Source: Leucoraja ocellata
Taxonomy: Eukaryota
Length of the DNA: 64,000 bases
Assembly: GCA_036785375.1 (NCBI GenBank)
Contig: JAWMAR010001278.1
Span: 124,001-188,000 of the forward strand
Direction of reading: 5' to 3'
Made by a program: the position numbers. Below are positions 15,201 to 57,200 of the stretch, piece after piece. Every line of letters begins with the position of its first letter. Within the stretch, counting starts at the first letter, position 1.

Positions 15201-18200
15201 ACACAAAATACACAAACACAAAATACTTGAAATATGAATTAAAGTGACGAGTGGAAAGGCTTGGGGGCTGTGCAAAGATTACGTGGGAGGGGGGTGGTGG
15301 GGAGGCAAGTCAGTCTCAGTCTACACTATGACAGAAGGGGGAGGAGTTGTACAGTTTGATAGCCACAGGGAAGAACGATCTCCTGTGGCGTTCTGTGCTG
15401 ATGGCACTGGCCACCACCTATTAGTAGAACATCTGCAGCTACTGAAGATAGACACAAAATGCTGGAGCAGACAATGCTGGAGAAACTCAGCGGGTGAGGC
15501 AGCATCTATGGAGCGAAGGAAATAGTCAACGTTTCGGGTCGACACCCTTCAGACTGATGTGAGGGTGGGGGCGGGAAGAAAGGAAGAGGAGGAGACAGTG
15601 GGCTGAGGGCGAGCTGGGAAGGAGAGGAGAAAGCCAGGACTACCTGATATTAGAGAAGTCAATGTTCATACCGCTGGGGTGTAAACTGCCCAAGCGAAAT
15701 ATGAGGTGCTGCTCCTCCAATTTACGGTGGGCCTCACTCTGGCCATGGAGGAGGCCCAGGACAGAAAGGTCAGATTGGGAATGTGAGGAAGAGTTGAAGT
15801 GCTGAGCCACTGGGAGATCAGGTTGGTTATTGCAATGCTGGAGTAACTCAACGGGACAGGCAGCATCACTGGAGGGAAGGAATAGGTGACATTTTGGGGT
15901 GAGACCCTTTTTCAGACTGGATATATTTGTATAAGGTACTTGGTACACAGATACACCCTGGTACACTGTTTAACCATCGAGAACATCCGCAACACACTGC
16001 CAAGGGCAGTGATGGAGGCAGATAGGACAGATCCTCCAGATGCGCCAAAGATTTCCCGGGATTCGGGATGCACTCACACACCTGAGAGTGTCACCTGTGT
16101 GTGTGCGGCCAGGTGCAACCCACCCGGAGAGCTCACCTGGCACCTCCCCCTCGCCAACCTCAGCGGAAATCAAACCCACGGACGTCTCCACATCTGGCAG
16201 GTGGCAAGCGGGCATCTGGTGAATGGCTCCCTCACTCTGAGATGGGGTGAGGGAGGGGACAACGTGTGCTCAGTCCGAAACCGGCACGGGGAAGCCATGT
16301 TCACGCTGTATCTGTGGACGGAAGGTGAGGACATTTATGGGCGAGGGAAGTCAGAGAGCCAGAGAGTCATACTGTAATGGCCATTTCTAACTTTTACAAT
16401 GTCCAACTTTCCATTGCCATTACTACACAGGTAAGTAGGAGTGATCTTACACAGACCAAAACAGAACAGATCTTCCAGTCATTCTTTATTGAAGTAGTTG
16501 TACAAACAAAGTGATGAATGTACCAGGTTCTCTTTATTCTCATACAAGTTGTAACTTCCTGTCCTCCCGATCTGTGTGAACTGTGTACCCTCCACCTCCT
16601 GTAGCTGGTCTGAATCACTCCCTGTCCACTAAGCCCATGTGTTACACCCCTCCATTCATCAAATGACCGCCACCAAGTGTCCAAAATAATAGCGCTAGAA
16701 ATATCTAGACAAACTAATATAATACGCCAACAGTAGCTGGCTGAAACATAAATGACTCCTACACATACCGTGTGGAAACAGGCCCTTCAGCCCAACTTGC
16801 CCACACCAACCAACATGTCACACCTACACCAGTCCCACCTGCCTGCATTTGGCCCATACCCCTGCAAACCTGACCTCATTGTGTTCCTGCCTAATTCTCC
16901 AGTGATGGCAACATGGCCAGAGGATCTTGGATGACGGAGGTACTGAAGGAAATTCACATTAGGCAGGAAATGGTGTTGGGTAGACAGATGGGACTGAAGC
17001 TGATAAATCCCCAGGGCCTGATGACCTGCATCCCAGGGTACTTATGGAAGTGGCTCAAGAAATTGTGGACGCATTGGTGATCATTTTCCAATGTTCTATA
17101 GATTCAGGATCAGTTCCTGTGGATTGGAAGGTAGATAATGTTTTCCCACTTTTTAAGCATGGTTTGAGAGAGAAAACAATGAATTATAGACCAGTTAGCA
17201 TGACATAGGTGGTGGGGAAGGTGCTGGAGTCAATTGTAAAAGATGAAATAGCGGCACATTTGGATAGCAGTAACAGGATCAGTCGGAGTCACATTGATTT
17301 ATGAAGGGGAAATCATGCTTGATTAATCTTCTGGAATTTTTTGAGGATGTAACTGGGAAAATGGACAAGGTAGAGCCAGTGGATGTAGTGTACCTAGACT
17401 TTCAATAAGTACTAGACTAAGTGGGACCCATTGGGTCCCAAACACCACGGGGAGTGTGTGTTGGGGAGGGGTGGGTGAGAAAGTGTGTATGTGGGCTGGA
17501 GGGGTTTCCAAGGGGGGAGGAGGAGGGATGTGGGGGAGGAGGGGGTGTTGTGTGGGTGGGCTGTGGGAGGGAGGATGTGGGAGGAGGAGGGACTTGTTTG
17601 GGGGAGGGTTGTTTGAGGGCAGGGGGTGTTGTGGATGAGGGGTTTTCAGGTGGGGGAGGGTGTGTGTGGGGTGGGGATTGTGTGGGGGGGGAGGGAGTTT
17701 GTGTGTGTGTGGGGAGAGGCGGGGGTTGTGGGAGGAGGGGGGATTGTGCGGGGAGGGGGGATTGTGTGGGGAGGGGGGATTGTGTGGGGGAGGGGGGATT
17801 GTGTGGGGGAGGGGGGAATGTGTGGGGGAGGGGGTGTTGTGGGGGAGAGGGGTGTGTGGGCTGGGTGTGTGGTGTGGGGGTGCATTGTGGGGGTGTGTCA
17901 TCAGGGAGGTTGTGAGGGGTGTGTGGGAGGTAAGGGTGTGTGGGGAGAACGGTTGTGGGGTGGTGAGGGGTATGTGGGGGGGGGTTTTGGGGAGAGAGGT
18001 CTGTGGGCAGGGGGTGTGTGAGGGAGGGGTGTGGGGGGTGTTAGGGTGTGGGAGGGAGGGGTGTGTGGCAGGGGAAGGGTGTAGGCAGGGGGGAGAGAGC
18101 TCAGAGAAAAGACGGGGGAAGAGCCATGGGGAAGTGTGCAGCATTACGGGGAGGGGGTGCGGGAGCCAGCGAGGAGGACCAGAGGGGAAGGGGTTGGGGG

Positions 18201-54200: not shown

Positions 54201-57200
54201 GCACCCCCAACCCCTTCGCCTCTGGTCCTCCTCGTCGGGCTCCNNNNNNNNNNNNNNNNNNNNNNNNNNNNNNNNNNNNNNNNNNNNNNNNNNNNNNNNN
54301 NNNNNNNNNNNNNNNNNNNNNNNNNNNNNNNNNNNNNNNNNNNNNNNNNNNNNNNNNNNNNNNNNNNNNNNNNNNNNNNNNNNNNNNNNNNNNNNNNNNN
54401 NNNNNNNNNNNNNNNNNNNNNNNNNNNNNNNNNNNNNNNNNNNGTTCTCTTCAAGTTCCTTGATTCTAATATTCCGCCACTCGACCTCTATAGGAGAACA
54501 GCACTTGCATTGTTTTTCTTGTCGTATCTCCCACCATGTTTTGACCGCTCATCATCACTGTGCCTGCTGGCGGTGGGCGGTCCCCCTCTCAGTAAATCAT
54601 CAACGTCAGTGAGTGACACGTTCGGTAACAGTGTCAAAGGCCACCAGGTAATGTTGAATGTCACACGAGTGATTCAGTATAAATCCGATTGGGTGGGAAT
54701 GAGCAGCTTTGGAAAAGGTTCGGTCCAACACTATACATACACGGGAATCTCGACATGTCAGAGTTTTTGAGGATTCGGACACGGTACCGTTCCGTTCACT
54801 TACCTGCTAGTTTGCCGGTCACAAAATAATTGGACTGAATTGATGGAGAATACATCTCAAGGCCTAAACTGCTTACTGCCCACCATTTCTTGGCCTGATA
54901 CAATGGGGTTTCGGTCGAGTGATGTCGCCATTCTACAATCATCTGCTAGTTTTCTGTGTACATCATAAATGGCATGGGGTTAATGTGAAACAAACCTCAC
55001 GGCCTGAGCTGCTTTCTGTCCACCATTGGTCTGTTGCATCTTCATTTCCATCTTGTCATGTCGGCATCATTGGCACATGTTTGAACGTTACCATCTCATC
55101 TGGCGTCATCTGGTGAGTTACATAGAAACATAGAAAATATGTTTCACATCTGTAGTGGTTAGTTTAGTTTAACATATGTAGTGGAGTTTAACATCTGTAG
55201 CGGTTAGTAGCTGGGGAATATTCGGAGGGATAGGTTATACAGACATTTGGATGGGCAAGGGGTGATTAGGGATAGTCAGCATGGTTTTGTACGTGGGAGG
55301 TCGTATCTCACAAATCTATTGGTTTTTGCTGAAGACTTGACCAAAAAGGTTGATGAGGGCAGAGCTGTGGATGTTCTGTACATGGACTTCAGTCAGACGT
55401 TCGGCAAGGTTCCGCATGGTTGGCTGCTCTGGAAGGTTAGATTGCATGGGATCCAAGTAGAGATAGCTGAACGGATAGAACATTGGCACCATGGAAGGAG
55501 ACAGAGTGTGATGGTGGAAAGTCACTACTCAGACTCGAGGCCTGTGACTGGTGGTGTGCCTCAGGATTCGGTGCTGGGCCCGTTACTGTTAGTCATCTCC
55601 ATCAATGATTTGGATGAGAACATACAGGGCATGATCAGCAAGTGTGCTGAAGATACAAATGTTAGTAGTTTTGCAGTTAGTACAATGGTTGTGAAAGGTT
55701 GCAGCGGGATCTAGATAGATTGGCCAGGTTGGCGGAGGAATGGTTGACGGAATTTAATAAAGAAAAGTGTGAGGTGGTGCATTTATTGACGTCGAACAAA
55801 GGCTAACCATGGTCATTGGTCATCGGCAAGTCTCAGATGCTGACAATCTGAAATAAAAACAGTAAATGGTAGGTCTCTGCGCAGTGTTCTAGAGCAGAGG
55901 GATCTAGGAGTATAGGCGCATGGTTCCTTGAAGGTCGAGTCGCAGGTAGATAAGGTGGTCAAAAAGGCTTTTGGCACTTTGGCCTTCATCAGTCATTGTA
56001 TTGAATTTGGAGTTTGGAATGTCATGCTACAGTTGTATAAGACGTTCGTGAGATTGCATTAAAAATATTGTGTTCAGTTCTGGGCAACATGTTATAGGAC
56101 ATATGTTGTCAAGCTTGAAAGGGTGGAGAAACCAATTAAGAGGATGTTGGCAGGATTAGAGGGTGTGAGCTGCAGGGAGACATTGAGTAGGCTGGGTCTC
56201 TATTCGACGGAGGAGGATGGGAGACCTTATAGAAGTATACAAGATCATGAGAGGAATAGATCGAGTAGATGTGCAGAGTATTTTACCCAGAGTAGGAGAA
56301 TCGAGGACCAGAGGACATAGGTTCAAGGTGAAGGAGAAAATATTTAATAACTAATCGGAGGGATAACTTGTTCACACAGAGGGTGGTGGGTGTATGGAAG
56401 AAGCTGCCAGAGGATGTAGTTGAGGCAGGGACTGGCCCATCGTTTAAAAATCTGTTGGGCAGTTACATGGATAGGACAGGTTTGGAGGGTTAAGGCATGT
56501 GGGACTCATATAGCTGGGACATTGTTGGCCTGTGTGGGTGAGTTGCGTCGAGGGGCCTGTAATACGCTATAACTCGATGAGATGCATAAAGTATCTTGCC
56601 CAGAGTAGGTGAACGAAGGGGAAGCGATTTAATGTAAATCTAAGTGGTACCTTTTGACACAAAGCTTGGCTGCATTGGACAAGCTGCAAGAGGAGGCAGT
56701 TGAGGCGGGGACTATCCCTACGTTTAACAGACATTTAGAAAGATACGAGGACAGGACAGATTTAGGACAAATGGGACCAGTGTAGCGTGGACATGTTGGC
56801 CGCTGTAGGTAAGTTGTGCCGAAGGGCCTGTTTTATGTTTTATCACTCTCTGACTATGACTGTTTGCCACTGCTGGCTGGGACAATGGAATCATCTCATG
56901 GATAGACAAAAATGCTGGAGAAACTCAGCGGGTGAGGCAGCATCTAAGGAGAGAAGGAATATGCGACGTTTCGGGACGAGACCCCTCTTCGAGACCCTTC
57001 TTTACGTGGCCCATTCCTCCTCTCCCCAGATGCTGCCTCACCCGCTGAGTTCTCCAGCATTTTTGACTACCTTCTATTTTTGCAGCATCTGCAGTTATTT
57101 CATAAACGATTAAACTCGTGAGTCAGTATTAAACATTATTTCAAAAATGCATGGAGATCACGTTTAACTATTGCAATATAGTCCGACCAAGTATATGAAT

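What the first reader, a model, noticed from the sequence alone, without database searches (positions are those of the whole stretch)
18161..54243. 36-kb inverted duplication gives one Siglec ectodomain two alternative TM-ITIM tails (potential flip cassette)
Seen: the visible inverted repeat begins in the intron between the last Ig exon (ends 16324) and the TM exon. Both arms hold complete, open, splice-intact TM, cyto1 and ITIM exons (23122-25688 +; 49259-46637 -), and no Ig exons appear in 54.4-64 kb. By-eye count: 9 differences in 356 coding nt, 7 of them amino-acid changing, including a new extracellular juxtamembrane Cys (DKGF to DKCF) and an ITIM change (VVYAKL to VVYANL). Established: long inverted repeats mediate recurrent NAHR inversions and gene conversion, and mammalian Siglec clusters evolve by inverted duplication and conversion between paralogues. 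Inference: a crossover in the ~5 kb of arm upstream of the TM exon would invert the interior and attach the other tail, leaving an intact gene in either orientation. The mundane alternative is a tail-to-tail paralogue whose Ig exons are hidden in the gap.
Basis: partly seen in the sequence, partly recalled or inferred. Interest (0 to 1): 0.75.

Follow-up and report, generated by a model that had tools for sequence, protein, structure and literature searches.

The report
Inverted duplicate of a Siglec-like gene tail
The last three exons of a Siglec-like inhibitory immune-receptor gene, with their flanks, are present twice in mirror orientation, but the second copy is cut off by an assembly gap and nothing indicates that it acts as a switchable cassette.

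Summary
Window 18162-33852 (+) and 54243-36200 (-) are inverted copies. They share 12,238 aligned pairs with 3.9% mismatches, around a 2.3-2.8 kb spacer. Both lie in one gap-free stretch. Each arm has open, splice-intact TM, cyto1 and ITIM exons. I count 9 differences in 356 coding nt, 7 of them amino-acid changing. No Ig exon lies outside 3203-16377.

The outer end of the repeat is not a duplication breakpoint. The right arm runs to the last base before the 200-N gap. The left copy continues at that point into about 700 bp of C/A-rich low-complexity sequence. "One ectodomain, two tails" is therefore not established.

Both tails carry the same two ITIM-type motifs and an uncharged TM segment. 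pN/pS is 1.02, and the longest perfect identity upstream of the TM exon is 124 bp. Arm-specific retroelement insertions show an old, real duplication.

The flip geometry is correct. The arms also fit the architecture of loci that toggle in humans. Nothing here shows that flipping occurs or matters.

Most likely this is a tail-to-tail paralogue, or an orphan partial copy, truncated by the gap. Interest is low.

The parts
18162..33852 (+). Left arm of the inverted duplication. It is secure to 33557. The last 190 aligned nt (33663-33852) are a dispersed-repeat copy.
36200..54243 (-). Right arm. It is secure from 36396 and ends at the last base before the gap.
33853..36199 (.). Central spacer, made of repeat fragments and low-complexity sequence. 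It measures 2838 nt if the arms are taken to end at 33557/36396.
54244..54443 (.). 200-N run that truncates the right arm. It was not filled or looked up.
17450..18161 (.). C/A-rich (G/T-rich on +) low-complexity tract in the left copy. It starts exactly where the right arm's contig stops.
23122..23218 (+). Left TM exon (phase 1 in, phase 2 out). Encodes DKGFSIWKP and a hydrophobic segment.
49163..49259 (-). Right TM exon. It differs at 3 positions: Gly to Cys, Pro to Ala, and 1 synonymous.
24143..24209 (+). Left cyto1 exon.
48114..48180 (-). Right cyto1 exon, identical to the left one. It sits in a 288-bp stretch with a single mismatch.
25497..25688 (+). Left last exon with two ITIM-type motifs (VVYAKL, VEYAEL) and the stop codon.
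46637..46828 (-). Right last exon (VVYANL, VEYAEL) with stop. It has 6 differences, 5 of them amino-acid changing.
3110..3140 (+). Candidate leader exon: ATG, a hydrophobic peptide and a phase-1 GT donor, 84 nt upstream of the V exon. Predicted only.
3225..3599 (+). Siglec-type V-set exon, with Lys at the position of the canonical sialic-acid-binding Arg.
4056..4349 (+). C2-set Ig exon (C2a).
8464..8745 (+). Ig exon C2b (I-set/Ig_2).
13314..13595 (+). Ig exon C2b'', the tandem-duplicate copy of C2b with the same splice sites.
16040..16324 (+). Last Ig-like exon before the 6.8-kb intron that holds the left arm's outer end.
25946..28575 (-). Left-arm-specific LINE insertion: RVT_1 and zf-RVT matches, a poly-A/T end and a short target-site duplication. 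The site is empty in the right arm.
41463..42697 (-). Right-arm-specific retroelement insertion with a poly-A and a roughly 9-13 bp target-site duplication. The site is empty in the left arm.
37240..40988 (+). Right-arm-specific 3.7-kb insertion carrying RVT_1 ORFs and a 42-bp tandem repeat.
20854..21368 (.). Left-arm-specific 515-bp insertion upstream of the TM exon.
29504..29798 (.). 295-bp tract perfectly identical to right arm 45450-45156, in the 3' flank. It is longer than any of 2000 permutations.

Best explanation
This is a genuine, fairly old inverted segmental duplication. It copied at least the 3' part of a Siglec-like inhibitory receptor gene (about 5 kb of the last long intron, the TM, cyto1 and ITIM exons, and about 8 kb of 3' flank) into a tail-to-tail arrangement around a 2.3-2.8 kb spacer.

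The visible outer end is set by an assembly break in a low-complexity tract, not by the duplication. I think the right arm is most likely the 3' end of a second, tail-to-tail paralogue. Its upstream intron, Ig exons and leader would lie in sequence missing at the 200-N gap.

The gene itself would work as an ordinary ITIM receptor. It has a V-set domain and C2-type Ig domains outside the cell, one TM helix, and two tyrosine motifs that would recruit SH2 phosphatases after phosphorylation (inferred from the family, not tested).

Like any long inverted repeat pair, the arms can undergo occasional germline NAHR or gene conversion. That would exchange two near-equivalent inhibitory tails. It would be a by-product of the architecture, not a cassette mechanism.

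Shown here: the duplication, its age markers, the censored end and the exon integrity. Inferred: the hidden exons, the signalling and any recombination.
For: - The arms are collinear over 12,238 aligned pairs at 3.9% mismatch within one gap-free stretch.
- Four arm-specific insertions were found. Three carry poly-A, target-site-duplication or reverse-transcriptase hallmarks. This shows separate evolution after the duplication.
- Homology is still 94.7% in the outermost block and runs to the last base before the N run. The left copy continues there into about 700 bp of C/A-rich low-complexity sequence. The other N run also replaces a low-complexity tract of the tandem copy.
- The right tail keeps all 5 splice junction dinucleotides, its reading frames, both tyrosine motifs and an identical cyto1 exon.
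- The exon-bearing 3 kb is less diverged than the rest (2.9% against 4.3%, p = 7e-4).
- The V exon hits the Pfam V-set and Ig_CD22 families. Its 17 best PDB matches, out of 26 at E <= 0.01, are all Siglecs; one more Siglec (Siglec-15) ranks 24th, and the other eight are junctional adhesion molecule-like and sodium channel beta-2 chains.
- Whole-gene and inverted duplication and gene conversion are documented for mammalian Siglec clusters (passages; the title of Cao et al. 2009 seen only in search results).
Against: - No Ig exon and no collinear homology to 1-18161 appear in the 9.6 kb after the gap. A whole paralogue would need at least about 15 kb hidden behind a run written as only 200 N.
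- pN/pS between the tails is 1.02 (7 N: 2 S). That fits neutral drift of one copy better than two constrained genes. My own binomial estimate, not a tool output, puts this about 4-fold in favour of neutrality over omega = 0.3 (counts).
- Intactness of the right tail has a chance probability of 0.08-0.29 under neutrality, so it is weak evidence.
- The lower divergence of the exon region is shared by its introns (2.9%). It is therefore not exon-specific constraint.
Confidence: 0.5

Rival explanations
1. Orphan partial duplicate. The inverted duplication copied only the gene's 3' part, and its outer breakpoint lies in or near the low-complexity tract. The right-arm exons have no ectodomain of their own, are not normally expressed as a receptor, and drift neutrally.
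For: - pN/pS is 1.02, and coding divergence (2.5%) is not significantly below non-coding divergence (4.0%; Poisson p = 0.10).
- Nothing homologous to the upstream gene follows the gap, and there are no Ig exons or other ectodomain-type Pfam matches on the minus strand after it.
- The intact exons are compatible with chance (0.08-0.29).
- The gap is written as only 200 N.
Against: - The homology shows no decay towards its outer end, and it stops at a contig end rather than at a visible breakpoint.
- Both tyrosine motifs, all splice sites and the whole cyto1 exon are conserved.
- The true size of the gap is unknown.
Confidence: 0.33
2. Functional flip cassette. Recurrent NAHR in the roughly 5 kb upstream of the TM exons toggles the interior. 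One ectodomain is then expressed with either tail, and the variation (a juxtamembrane Cys, altered ITIM context) is maintained by selection.
For: - The geometry is correct, and an intact gene results in either orientation.
- The arm length and identity meet the architecture of human toggling loci, where repeat length rather than identity was the main driver.
- One 295-bp perfect tract and a low-divergence exon region could be old conversion tracts.
- The right tail gains a Cys next to the membrane.
Against: - No orientation data exist.
- 'One ectodomain' is not established.
- The tails are functionally near-equivalent. Both have two ITIM-type motifs, there is no charged TM residue, and cyto1 is identical.
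- The 3.9% divergence and the retained arm-specific insertions indicate little sequence exchange.
- Upstream of the TM exon the longest perfect identity is 124 bp. That is below the 134-232 bp range in which recombination already fell 20-fold in mouse cells.
- 64% of the aligned homology lies where a crossover would not swap whole tails.
- No recombinase was seen among the 28 stretches scanned.
Confidence: 0.05
3. Assembly artefact. The right arm is the other haplotype, or a mis-joined or folded-back copy of the left arm, and not a second genomic copy.
For: - The right arm ends at a contig end next to a gap.
- The assembly evidently breaks at low-complexity sequence.
- Immune-gene regions can have very divergent haplotypes (general knowledge, recalled).
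Against: - Both arms and the unique 2.3-2.8 kb spacer are joined by continuous sequence without N.
- The 3.9% mismatch, 49 small indels and four large arm-specific insertions, three with retroelement hallmarks, are far beyond fold-back chimeras. Those are near-identical and have no spacer. The differences are also high for alleles.
Confidence: 0.07

Closest known systems
Inverted segmental duplications that flank recurrently toggling inversions in humans (Porubsky et al. preprint, 10.1101/2021.12.20.472354, passages read; the EMD-FLN example is mentioned there)
   Same: Two inverted repeats of more than 10 kb with high identity bracket a short interior. NAHR between them would invert it without loss of sequence.
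   Different: Those loci have population evidence for both orientations, and many have much higher identity. Here there is one assembly, 3.9% divergence and no orientation data. The feature special to this locus is that the arms themselves contain the terminal exons of a gene.
Paired Siglec genes that evolve by gene conversion (Siglec-5/14, Siglec-11/16; Angata 2018, PMC6288428, passages; Hayakawa 2017, PMC5701461, listing and abstract only)
   Same: Neighbouring Siglec-type paralogues share long, highly similar segments and exchange sequence.
   Different: In those pairs the shared part is the ligand-binding 5' region, and the tails differ (inhibitory ITIM against a DAP12-coupled charged TM). 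Here the shared part is the tail, and both copies are inhibitory.
Ancient inverse duplication of the mammalian CD33-related Siglec cluster (Cao et al. 2009; I saw only that 8 papers hold both search terms, and did not read the paper)
   Same: Inverted duplication is a mode of growth of Siglec loci.
   Different: That event duplicated a whole multi-gene sub-cluster in mammals. This is a 15-18 kb arm in a non-mammalian-looking genome, with an unknown outer limit.
A gene with a partial inverted pseudogene copy nearby that recombines with it (IDS/IDS2 in Hunter syndrome; recalled, not checked here)
   Same: There is an inverted partial copy of gene segments next to the parent gene, and recombination between them inverts the interval.
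   Different: In the recalled case the inversion disrupts the gene. Here the arms include every terminal exon, so the gene would stay intact.
Bacterial shufflons and invertible C-terminal cassettes (e.g. the plasmid R64 pilV shufflon; recalled, not checked here)
   Different: Those use a dedicated site-specific recombinase and short crossover sites, and they give functionally distinct ends. None of these features was found here.

Membership tests
Siglec family (sialic-acid-binding Ig-like lectins) | N-terminal V-set Ig domain of the Siglec type, including the extra cysteines | tested here: met
   Exon 3227-3598 hits Pfam V-set (1.6e-12) and Ig_CD22 (3.5e-6, 27.8 bits against a cut-off of 27). 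The best PDB matches are sialoadhesin (3.7e-17), MAG, Siglec-5, CD33, Siglec-8, -10 and -7. The three V-domain cysteines align with those of sialoadhesin.
Siglec family (sialic-acid-binding Ig-like lectins) | Conserved arginine required for sialic-acid recognition | tested here: not met
   In the alignments, Lys (in YFFKVD) stands opposite the Arg of sialoadhesin (chain residue 97) and of MAG. Angata 2018 (passages) states that this arginine is essential and that primate Siglecs mutated there cannot recognise sialic acid. I therefore call the gene Siglec-like, not a Siglec lectin.
Siglec family (sialic-acid-binding Ig-like lectins) | One or more C2-set Ig domains after the V-set domain | tested here: met
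   Exon 4058-4348 hits C2-set_2 (8.5e-10). Exon 8466-8744 hits I-set, Ig_3 and Ig_2 (3e-10 to 2e-8). Exon 16042-16323 gives only a weak C2-set_2 match (0.06).
Siglec family (sialic-acid-binding Ig-like lectins) | Single TM segment and a cytoplasmic ITIM plus a second ITIM-like motif (inhibitory type) | tested here: met
   There is a hydrophobic run in the TM exon and two V-x-Y-x-x-L motifs in the last exon of both arms. The ITIM consensus is recalled. ITIM and ITIM-like motifs in Siglecs are described. Pfam has no model for the tail (0 families).
Siglec family (sialic-acid-binding Ig-like lectins) | Binding of sialylated glycans | not testable with these tools
   This needs a glycan array or binding assay of the expressed ectodomain.
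Inverted low-copy-repeat pair mediating NAHR inversion (toggling locus) | Inverted repeats of roughly 10 kb or more with high identity | tested here: met
   The arms are about 15.4-15.7 kb and 17.8-18.0 kb, with 96.1% identity over 12,238 aligned pairs. The criteria are quoted.
Inverted low-copy-repeat pair mediating NAHR inversion (toggling locus) | Long uninterrupted identity (minimal efficient processing segment) at the crossover region | tested here: inconclusive
   Upstream of the TM exon the longest perfect tracts are 124, 121 and 110 bp, and none reaches 134 bp. Overall the longest is 295 bp. The mouse-cell data quoted suggest low efficiency, but one search reports that repeat length, not identity, predicted recurrence.
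Inverted low-copy-repeat pair mediating NAHR inversion (toggling locus) | Both orientations found among individuals or haplotypes | not testable with these tools
Programmed invertible cassette (shufflon / invertase switch) | Dedicated recombinase and defined crossover sites | tested here: not met
   Of 28 translated stretches sent to Pfam, the matches were Ig domains, 7tm_1, RVT_1, zf-RVT, ALKBH8_N and a weak DUF3431. None was a recombinase. Not every ORF was scanned.
Programmed invertible cassette (shufflon / invertase switch) | Functionally distinct alternative ends | tested here: not met
   The two tails differ at 7 of 116 compared residues. They keep both tyrosine motifs and an identical cyto1 exon.
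Paired activating/inhibitory receptor genes | One partner has a charged TM residue and lacks an ITIM | tested here: not met
   Both TM exons encode the same uncharged hydrophobic run after the Pro/Ala position, and both tails carry two ITIM-type motifs.

The most novel reading that the evidence does not exclude
The locus is a natural inversion toggle. Germline, or even somatic, NAHR in the 5 kb upstream of the TM exons recurrently swaps two tails behind a single Siglec-like ectodomain. One tail carries a membrane-proximal Cys that could allow disulfide-linked dimers. Individuals or cells would then differ in receptor form without any change in gene content.
Probability: 0.04. Interest if true: 0.6.

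Novelty: new member of a known kind. Interest (0 to 1): 0.2.

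Why it matters
If the plain reading is right, this is one more inverted segmental duplication in a fast-evolving immune-receptor region. Its main value is practical. The gene model for the left copy should not borrow the right-arm exons, and the gap at 54244 may hide a paralogue. 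Read mapping and variant calls in 18-54 kb will be confounded by the 96% identical arms.

The toggle reading would matter more if it proved true. It would be a vertebrate case in which an inversion between inverted repeats exchanges coding 3' ends while leaving the gene intact. Even then the two ends are near-equivalent inhibitory tails, so the expected functional effect is small.

Tried and rejected
- **Fold-back or haplotype artefact.** I considered this and rated it low. The reasons are the 3.9% divergence, the 49 small indels, the unique spacer and the arm-specific retroelement insertions with target-site duplications.
- **Hidden Ig or other ectodomain exons after the gap.** tblastn with 7 Ig-exon frames found none outside 3203-16377. 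Pfam on 8 minus-strand and 2 plus-strand ORFs from 55.2-63.3 kb gave only one RVT_1 match.
- **Collinear but diverged homology after the gap.** Sensitive blastn found only dispersed repeats.
- **Structured RNA in the arms.** Rfam gave 0 matches at gathering thresholds for the whole window.
- **Conversion tracts.** The run-length permutation test found one outlier, the 295-bp tract (0 of 2000 permutations). Without an outgroup it cannot be told apart from a conserved element.
- **ESM Atlas look-alikes of the 63-aa ITIM exon.** The best score was 0.89, to an unnamed cluster. This was uninformative.
- **Exon-specific purifying selection as the cause of the lower divergence at 22844-25850.** Rejected, because the introns there are equally low at 2.9%.
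- **The MEPS argument as a strong objection to NAHR.** Weakened, which found that repeat length, not identity, predicted recurrence.
- **Naming the organism.** No eukaryotic genome collection was available. The repeat-encoded peptides remind me of cartilaginous-fish LINEs (recalled, untested).
- **Literature search for Siglecs in cartilaginous fish.** It returned 22 papers, none on such a locus among the 12 listed. One passage from the whale-shark paper only lists Siglecs among Ig families.

Full report
**Scope and rules.** I do not take this window for human. Its V-set exon is only about one third identical to the nearest solved Siglec domains: 40 of 117 aligned positions to mouse-type sialoadhesin by my count of the alignment, with human Siglecs at E 1e-12 to 1e-7. 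The window is also full of LINE/SINE fragments unlike those of mammals. The organism was not identified, because no eukaryotic genome collection was on hand. A resemblance of the repeat-encoded peptides to cartilaginous-fish LINEs is recalled, not tested. The spliced model was searched exon by exon only. The joined protein was never built or searched, so no whole-protein search result exists.

**The observation.** The window has N runs at 10866-11002 and 54244-54443 only. The repeat finder and a minus-strand self-BLAST show a collinear series of inverted matches at 92-98% identity. They run from 18162/54243 inward to 33557/36396, with a further 190-nt block at 33663-33852/36389-36200 that belongs to a dispersed repeat family.
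- A chained alignment of 11 blocks gives 12,238 aligned pairs, 481 mismatches (3.93%, K2P 0.040, 252 transitions and 229 transversions) and 49 small indels.
- All other inverted hits in the window are 75-92% copies of dispersed repeats.
- The spacer is 2.35-2.84 kb of repeat fragments and low-complexity sequence.

**The exons.** The coordinates, left / right, are as follows.
- TM: 23122-23218 / 49259-49163.
- cyto1: 24143-24209 / 48180-48114.
- Last exon with stop: 25497-25688 / 46828-46637.

All three acceptors, both donors and the reading frames are present in both arms. Counting exon by exon, with the split codons left out, I find 9 nucleotide differences, 7 amino-acid changing and 2 silent. 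They are Gly/Cys, Pro/Ala and one silent in the TM exon, none in cyto1, and Gly/Arg, Gly/Glu, Lys/Asn, Asp/Ala, Met/Lys and one silent in the last exon.

**What the gene is.** The upstream exons are as follows.

| Exon | Coordinates | Evidence |
|---|---|---|
| Candidate leader (predicted only) | 3110-3140 | |
| V-set | 3225-3599 | Pfam V-set 1.6e-12, Ig_CD22 3.5e-6 |
| C2-set | 4056-4349 | C2-set_2 8.5e-10 |
| Ig exon C2b | 8464-8745 | I-set 3.3e-10 |
| Ig exon C2b'' (near-identical to C2b) | 13314-13595 | same splice sites |
| Last Ig-like exon | 16040-16324 | weak C2-set_2, 0.06 |

Against the PDB, the 17 best of the 26 matches at E <= 0.01 are Siglecs: sialoadhesin 3.7e-17, then MAG, Siglec-5, CD33, Siglec-8, -10 and -7. 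Siglec-15 follows at rank 24, and the other eight are junctional adhesion molecule-like and sodium channel beta-2 chains. The V-domain cysteines align.

The arginine that Siglecs need for sialic-acid recognition (passages) is a lysine here. It aligns with the Arg of both sialoadhesin and MAG. I therefore call the gene Siglec-like. It is homologous to Siglecs, but one defining feature of the lectins was tested and not met.

The tail has two V-x-Y-x-x-L motifs, which fit the ITIM consensus (recalled), and an uncharged TM run. The expected function is inhibitory signalling through SH2 phosphatases, inferred from the family.

**The outer end of the repeat is an assembly end.** The right arm aligns to the left arm up to the very last base before the N run. 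The outermost block (18162-18837 against 54243-53575) is 94.7% identical, with no decay. In the left copy, the next bases outward (18161 down to about 17450) are some 700 bp of C/A-rich low-complexity sequence. The other N run, 10866-11002, likewise sits where the tandem sister copy has a CA-rich tract.

The assembler evidently breaks at such tracts, so the statement that the repeat "begins in the intron" is a lower bound only. After the gap there is no Ig exon, no collinear homology to 1-18161, and no ectodomain-type Pfam match on the minus strand. A complete right-hand gene would therefore need at least about 15 kb of missing sequence. I cannot tell whether the 200 N stand for an unknown size.

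**Real and old, not an artefact.** The arms differ by large insertions whose empty sites are preserved in the other arm.
- A 2.6-kb LINE in the left arm (25946-28575), with RVT_1 8.4e-20, a zf-RVT match, a poly-T/A end and a short target-site duplication.
- A 1.2-kb element in the right arm (41463-42697), with a poly-A and a roughly 9-13 bp target-site duplication.
- A 3.7-kb RT-bearing insertion in the right arm (37240-40988).
- A 515-bp insertion in the left arm (20854-21368).

Together with the 3.9% divergence and the unique spacer inside continuous sequence, they argue against a fold-back chimera and make a haplotype mis-join unlikely.

**Selection and exchange between the arms.**
- pN/pS is 1.02 (7 of 269.3 non-synonymous sites, 2 of 78.7 synonymous sites).
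- Coding divergence (9 of 356, 2.5%) is not significantly below non-coding divergence (472 of 11,882, 4.0%; Poisson p = 0.10, chi-square p = 0.21).
- Under neutrality the right tail would stay free of stops, splice-site changes and small indels with probability 0.08 if all change fell on it, and 0.29 if half did. "Intact" is therefore weak evidence of function.
- The 3 kb that carries the exons is less diverged than the rest (86 of 3000 against 395 of 9238, p = 7e-4). Its introns and flanks show the same low value (77 of 2644), so this is regional rather than exon-specific. It could reflect old gene conversion or rate variation.
- A permutation test on identical runs finds one outlier, 295 bp at 29504-29798/45450-45156 in the 3' flank (0 of 2000 permutations). 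Windows with 1-3 differences are also longer than expected (p <= 0.004). The tract has no Rfam match and no obvious feature. Without an outgroup it remains unexplained.

**The flip idea.** The geometry is sound. A crossover between homologous points upstream of the two TM exons inverts everything between them and puts the right-arm tail exons, now on the + strand, behind exon 16040-16324.

In favour of flipping, recurrently toggling human inversions mostly have flanking inverted repeats of at least 10 kb with at least 79% identity. Repeat length rather than identity was the significant predictor, and rates were 3.4e-6 to 2.7e-4 per generation (preprint passages). The arms here qualify.

Against a dedicated or consequential cassette:
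- Only 35% of the aligned homology lies upstream of the TM exons. Another 21% lies between the TM exon and the stop codon, which would give chimeric tails. The remaining 43% lies downstream, which would give no change in the transcript.
- That upstream part is the most broken up. It has 4.3% mismatch, several arm-specific indels, and longest perfect tracts of 124, 121 and 110 bp. In mouse cells, cutting uninterrupted identity from 232 to 134 bp lowered intrachromosomal recombination 20-fold (review passages).
- The persisting 3.9% divergence argues against frequent exchange.
- The two tails are near-equivalent, so a swap would change little. The new juxtamembrane Cys is the only difference with an obvious possible consequence, and that is speculation.
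- No recombinase was seen among the 28 stretches scanned.
- If the right arm has its own Ig exons, the premise fails.

**Verdict.** This is a real inverted segmental duplication of the 3' part of a Siglec-like ITIM receptor gene, truncated in the assembly.

| Reading | Probability |
|---|---|
| Tail-to-tail paralogue whose upstream part is missing at the gap | about 0.5 |
| Orphan partial copy | about 0.33 |
| Assembly artefact | about 0.07 |
| Functionally meaningful flip cassette | about 0.05 |

Occasional NAHR inversion as a neutral polymorphism is compatible with either of the first two readings and cannot be assessed here. It is a new member of a known kind, of low interest.

**Literature seen.**
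- PMC2583991 (Gu et al. 2008): passages.
- 10.1101/2021.12.20.472354: passages.
- PMC6288428: passages.
- PMC8455134: one passage.
- PMC5701461 and the other titles: search listing and the start of the abstract only.
- Cao et al. 2009 was not read.
Table 1 and the supplements of the inversion preprint, which list per-locus repeat lengths and identities, could refine the comparison.

Noticed in passing
window 4385-8989 vs 9289-13839: There is a direct tandem duplication of about 4.85 kb inside the Ig-exon region, at 94-95% identity. It gives a second intact C2b-type exon (13314-13595, with the same splice sites as 8464-8745). It also gives a partial C2a copy (from 8987) that lacks its first ~90 nt and its acceptor.
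   Followed up: partly
window 5191-5907 and 10083-10786: A further C2b-like Ig exon is split by a ~410-430 bp dispersed-repeat insertion in both tandem units. The insertion therefore predates the tandem duplication. The second copy also shows frame changes.
   Followed up: partly
window 3225-3599 (V-set exon): Lys stands where the sialic-acid-binding Arg of sialoadhesin and MAG aligns (YFFKVD). The ectodomain may not bind sialic acid in the canonical way.
   Followed up: partly
window 60001-60921 (+): An intronless rhodopsin-type GPCR reading frame is interrupted by one in-frame stop at 60598-60600. Pfam 7tm_1 positions 2-187 match the first ORF and 189-260 match the second. This could be a pseudogene or a sequencing error.
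   Followed up: partly
window 29504-29798 and 45156-45450: A 295-bp tract is perfectly identical between the arms, in AT-rich 3' flank next to a LINE fragment. It is longer than in any of 2000 permutations. It may be a conversion tract or a conserved element such as a UTR, and it remains unexplained.
   Followed up: partly
window 10866-11002 and 54244-54443: Both N runs sit where the homologous copy elsewhere in the window has low-complexity sequence (CA-rich 5940-6345; C/A-rich 17450-18161). This suggests the assembly breaks at such tracts.
   Followed up: yes
window 2921-3090: A 33-bp tandem repeat (5.2 copies, 94% matches) lies immediately upstream of the candidate leader exon 3110-3140.
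   Followed up: no
window 48910-49068: A 58-bp tandem repeat (2.7 copies) lies about 95 nt downstream of the right-arm TM exon. It explains the 58-nt offset between adjacent alignment blocks. Copy number appears to differ between the arms.
   Followed up: no
window 33480-33852 and 36199-36473: The inner ends of both arms coincide with inverted copies of a dispersed repeat family. Those copies are 91-93% identical to copies at 5411-5749, 7030-7221, 10270-10625 and 11864-12062. This may hint at how the inverted duplication formed.
   Followed up: no
arms, whole alignment: The transition:transversion ratio between the arms is only 252:229, which is low for vertebrate paralogous sequence. I did not explore it.
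   Followed up: no
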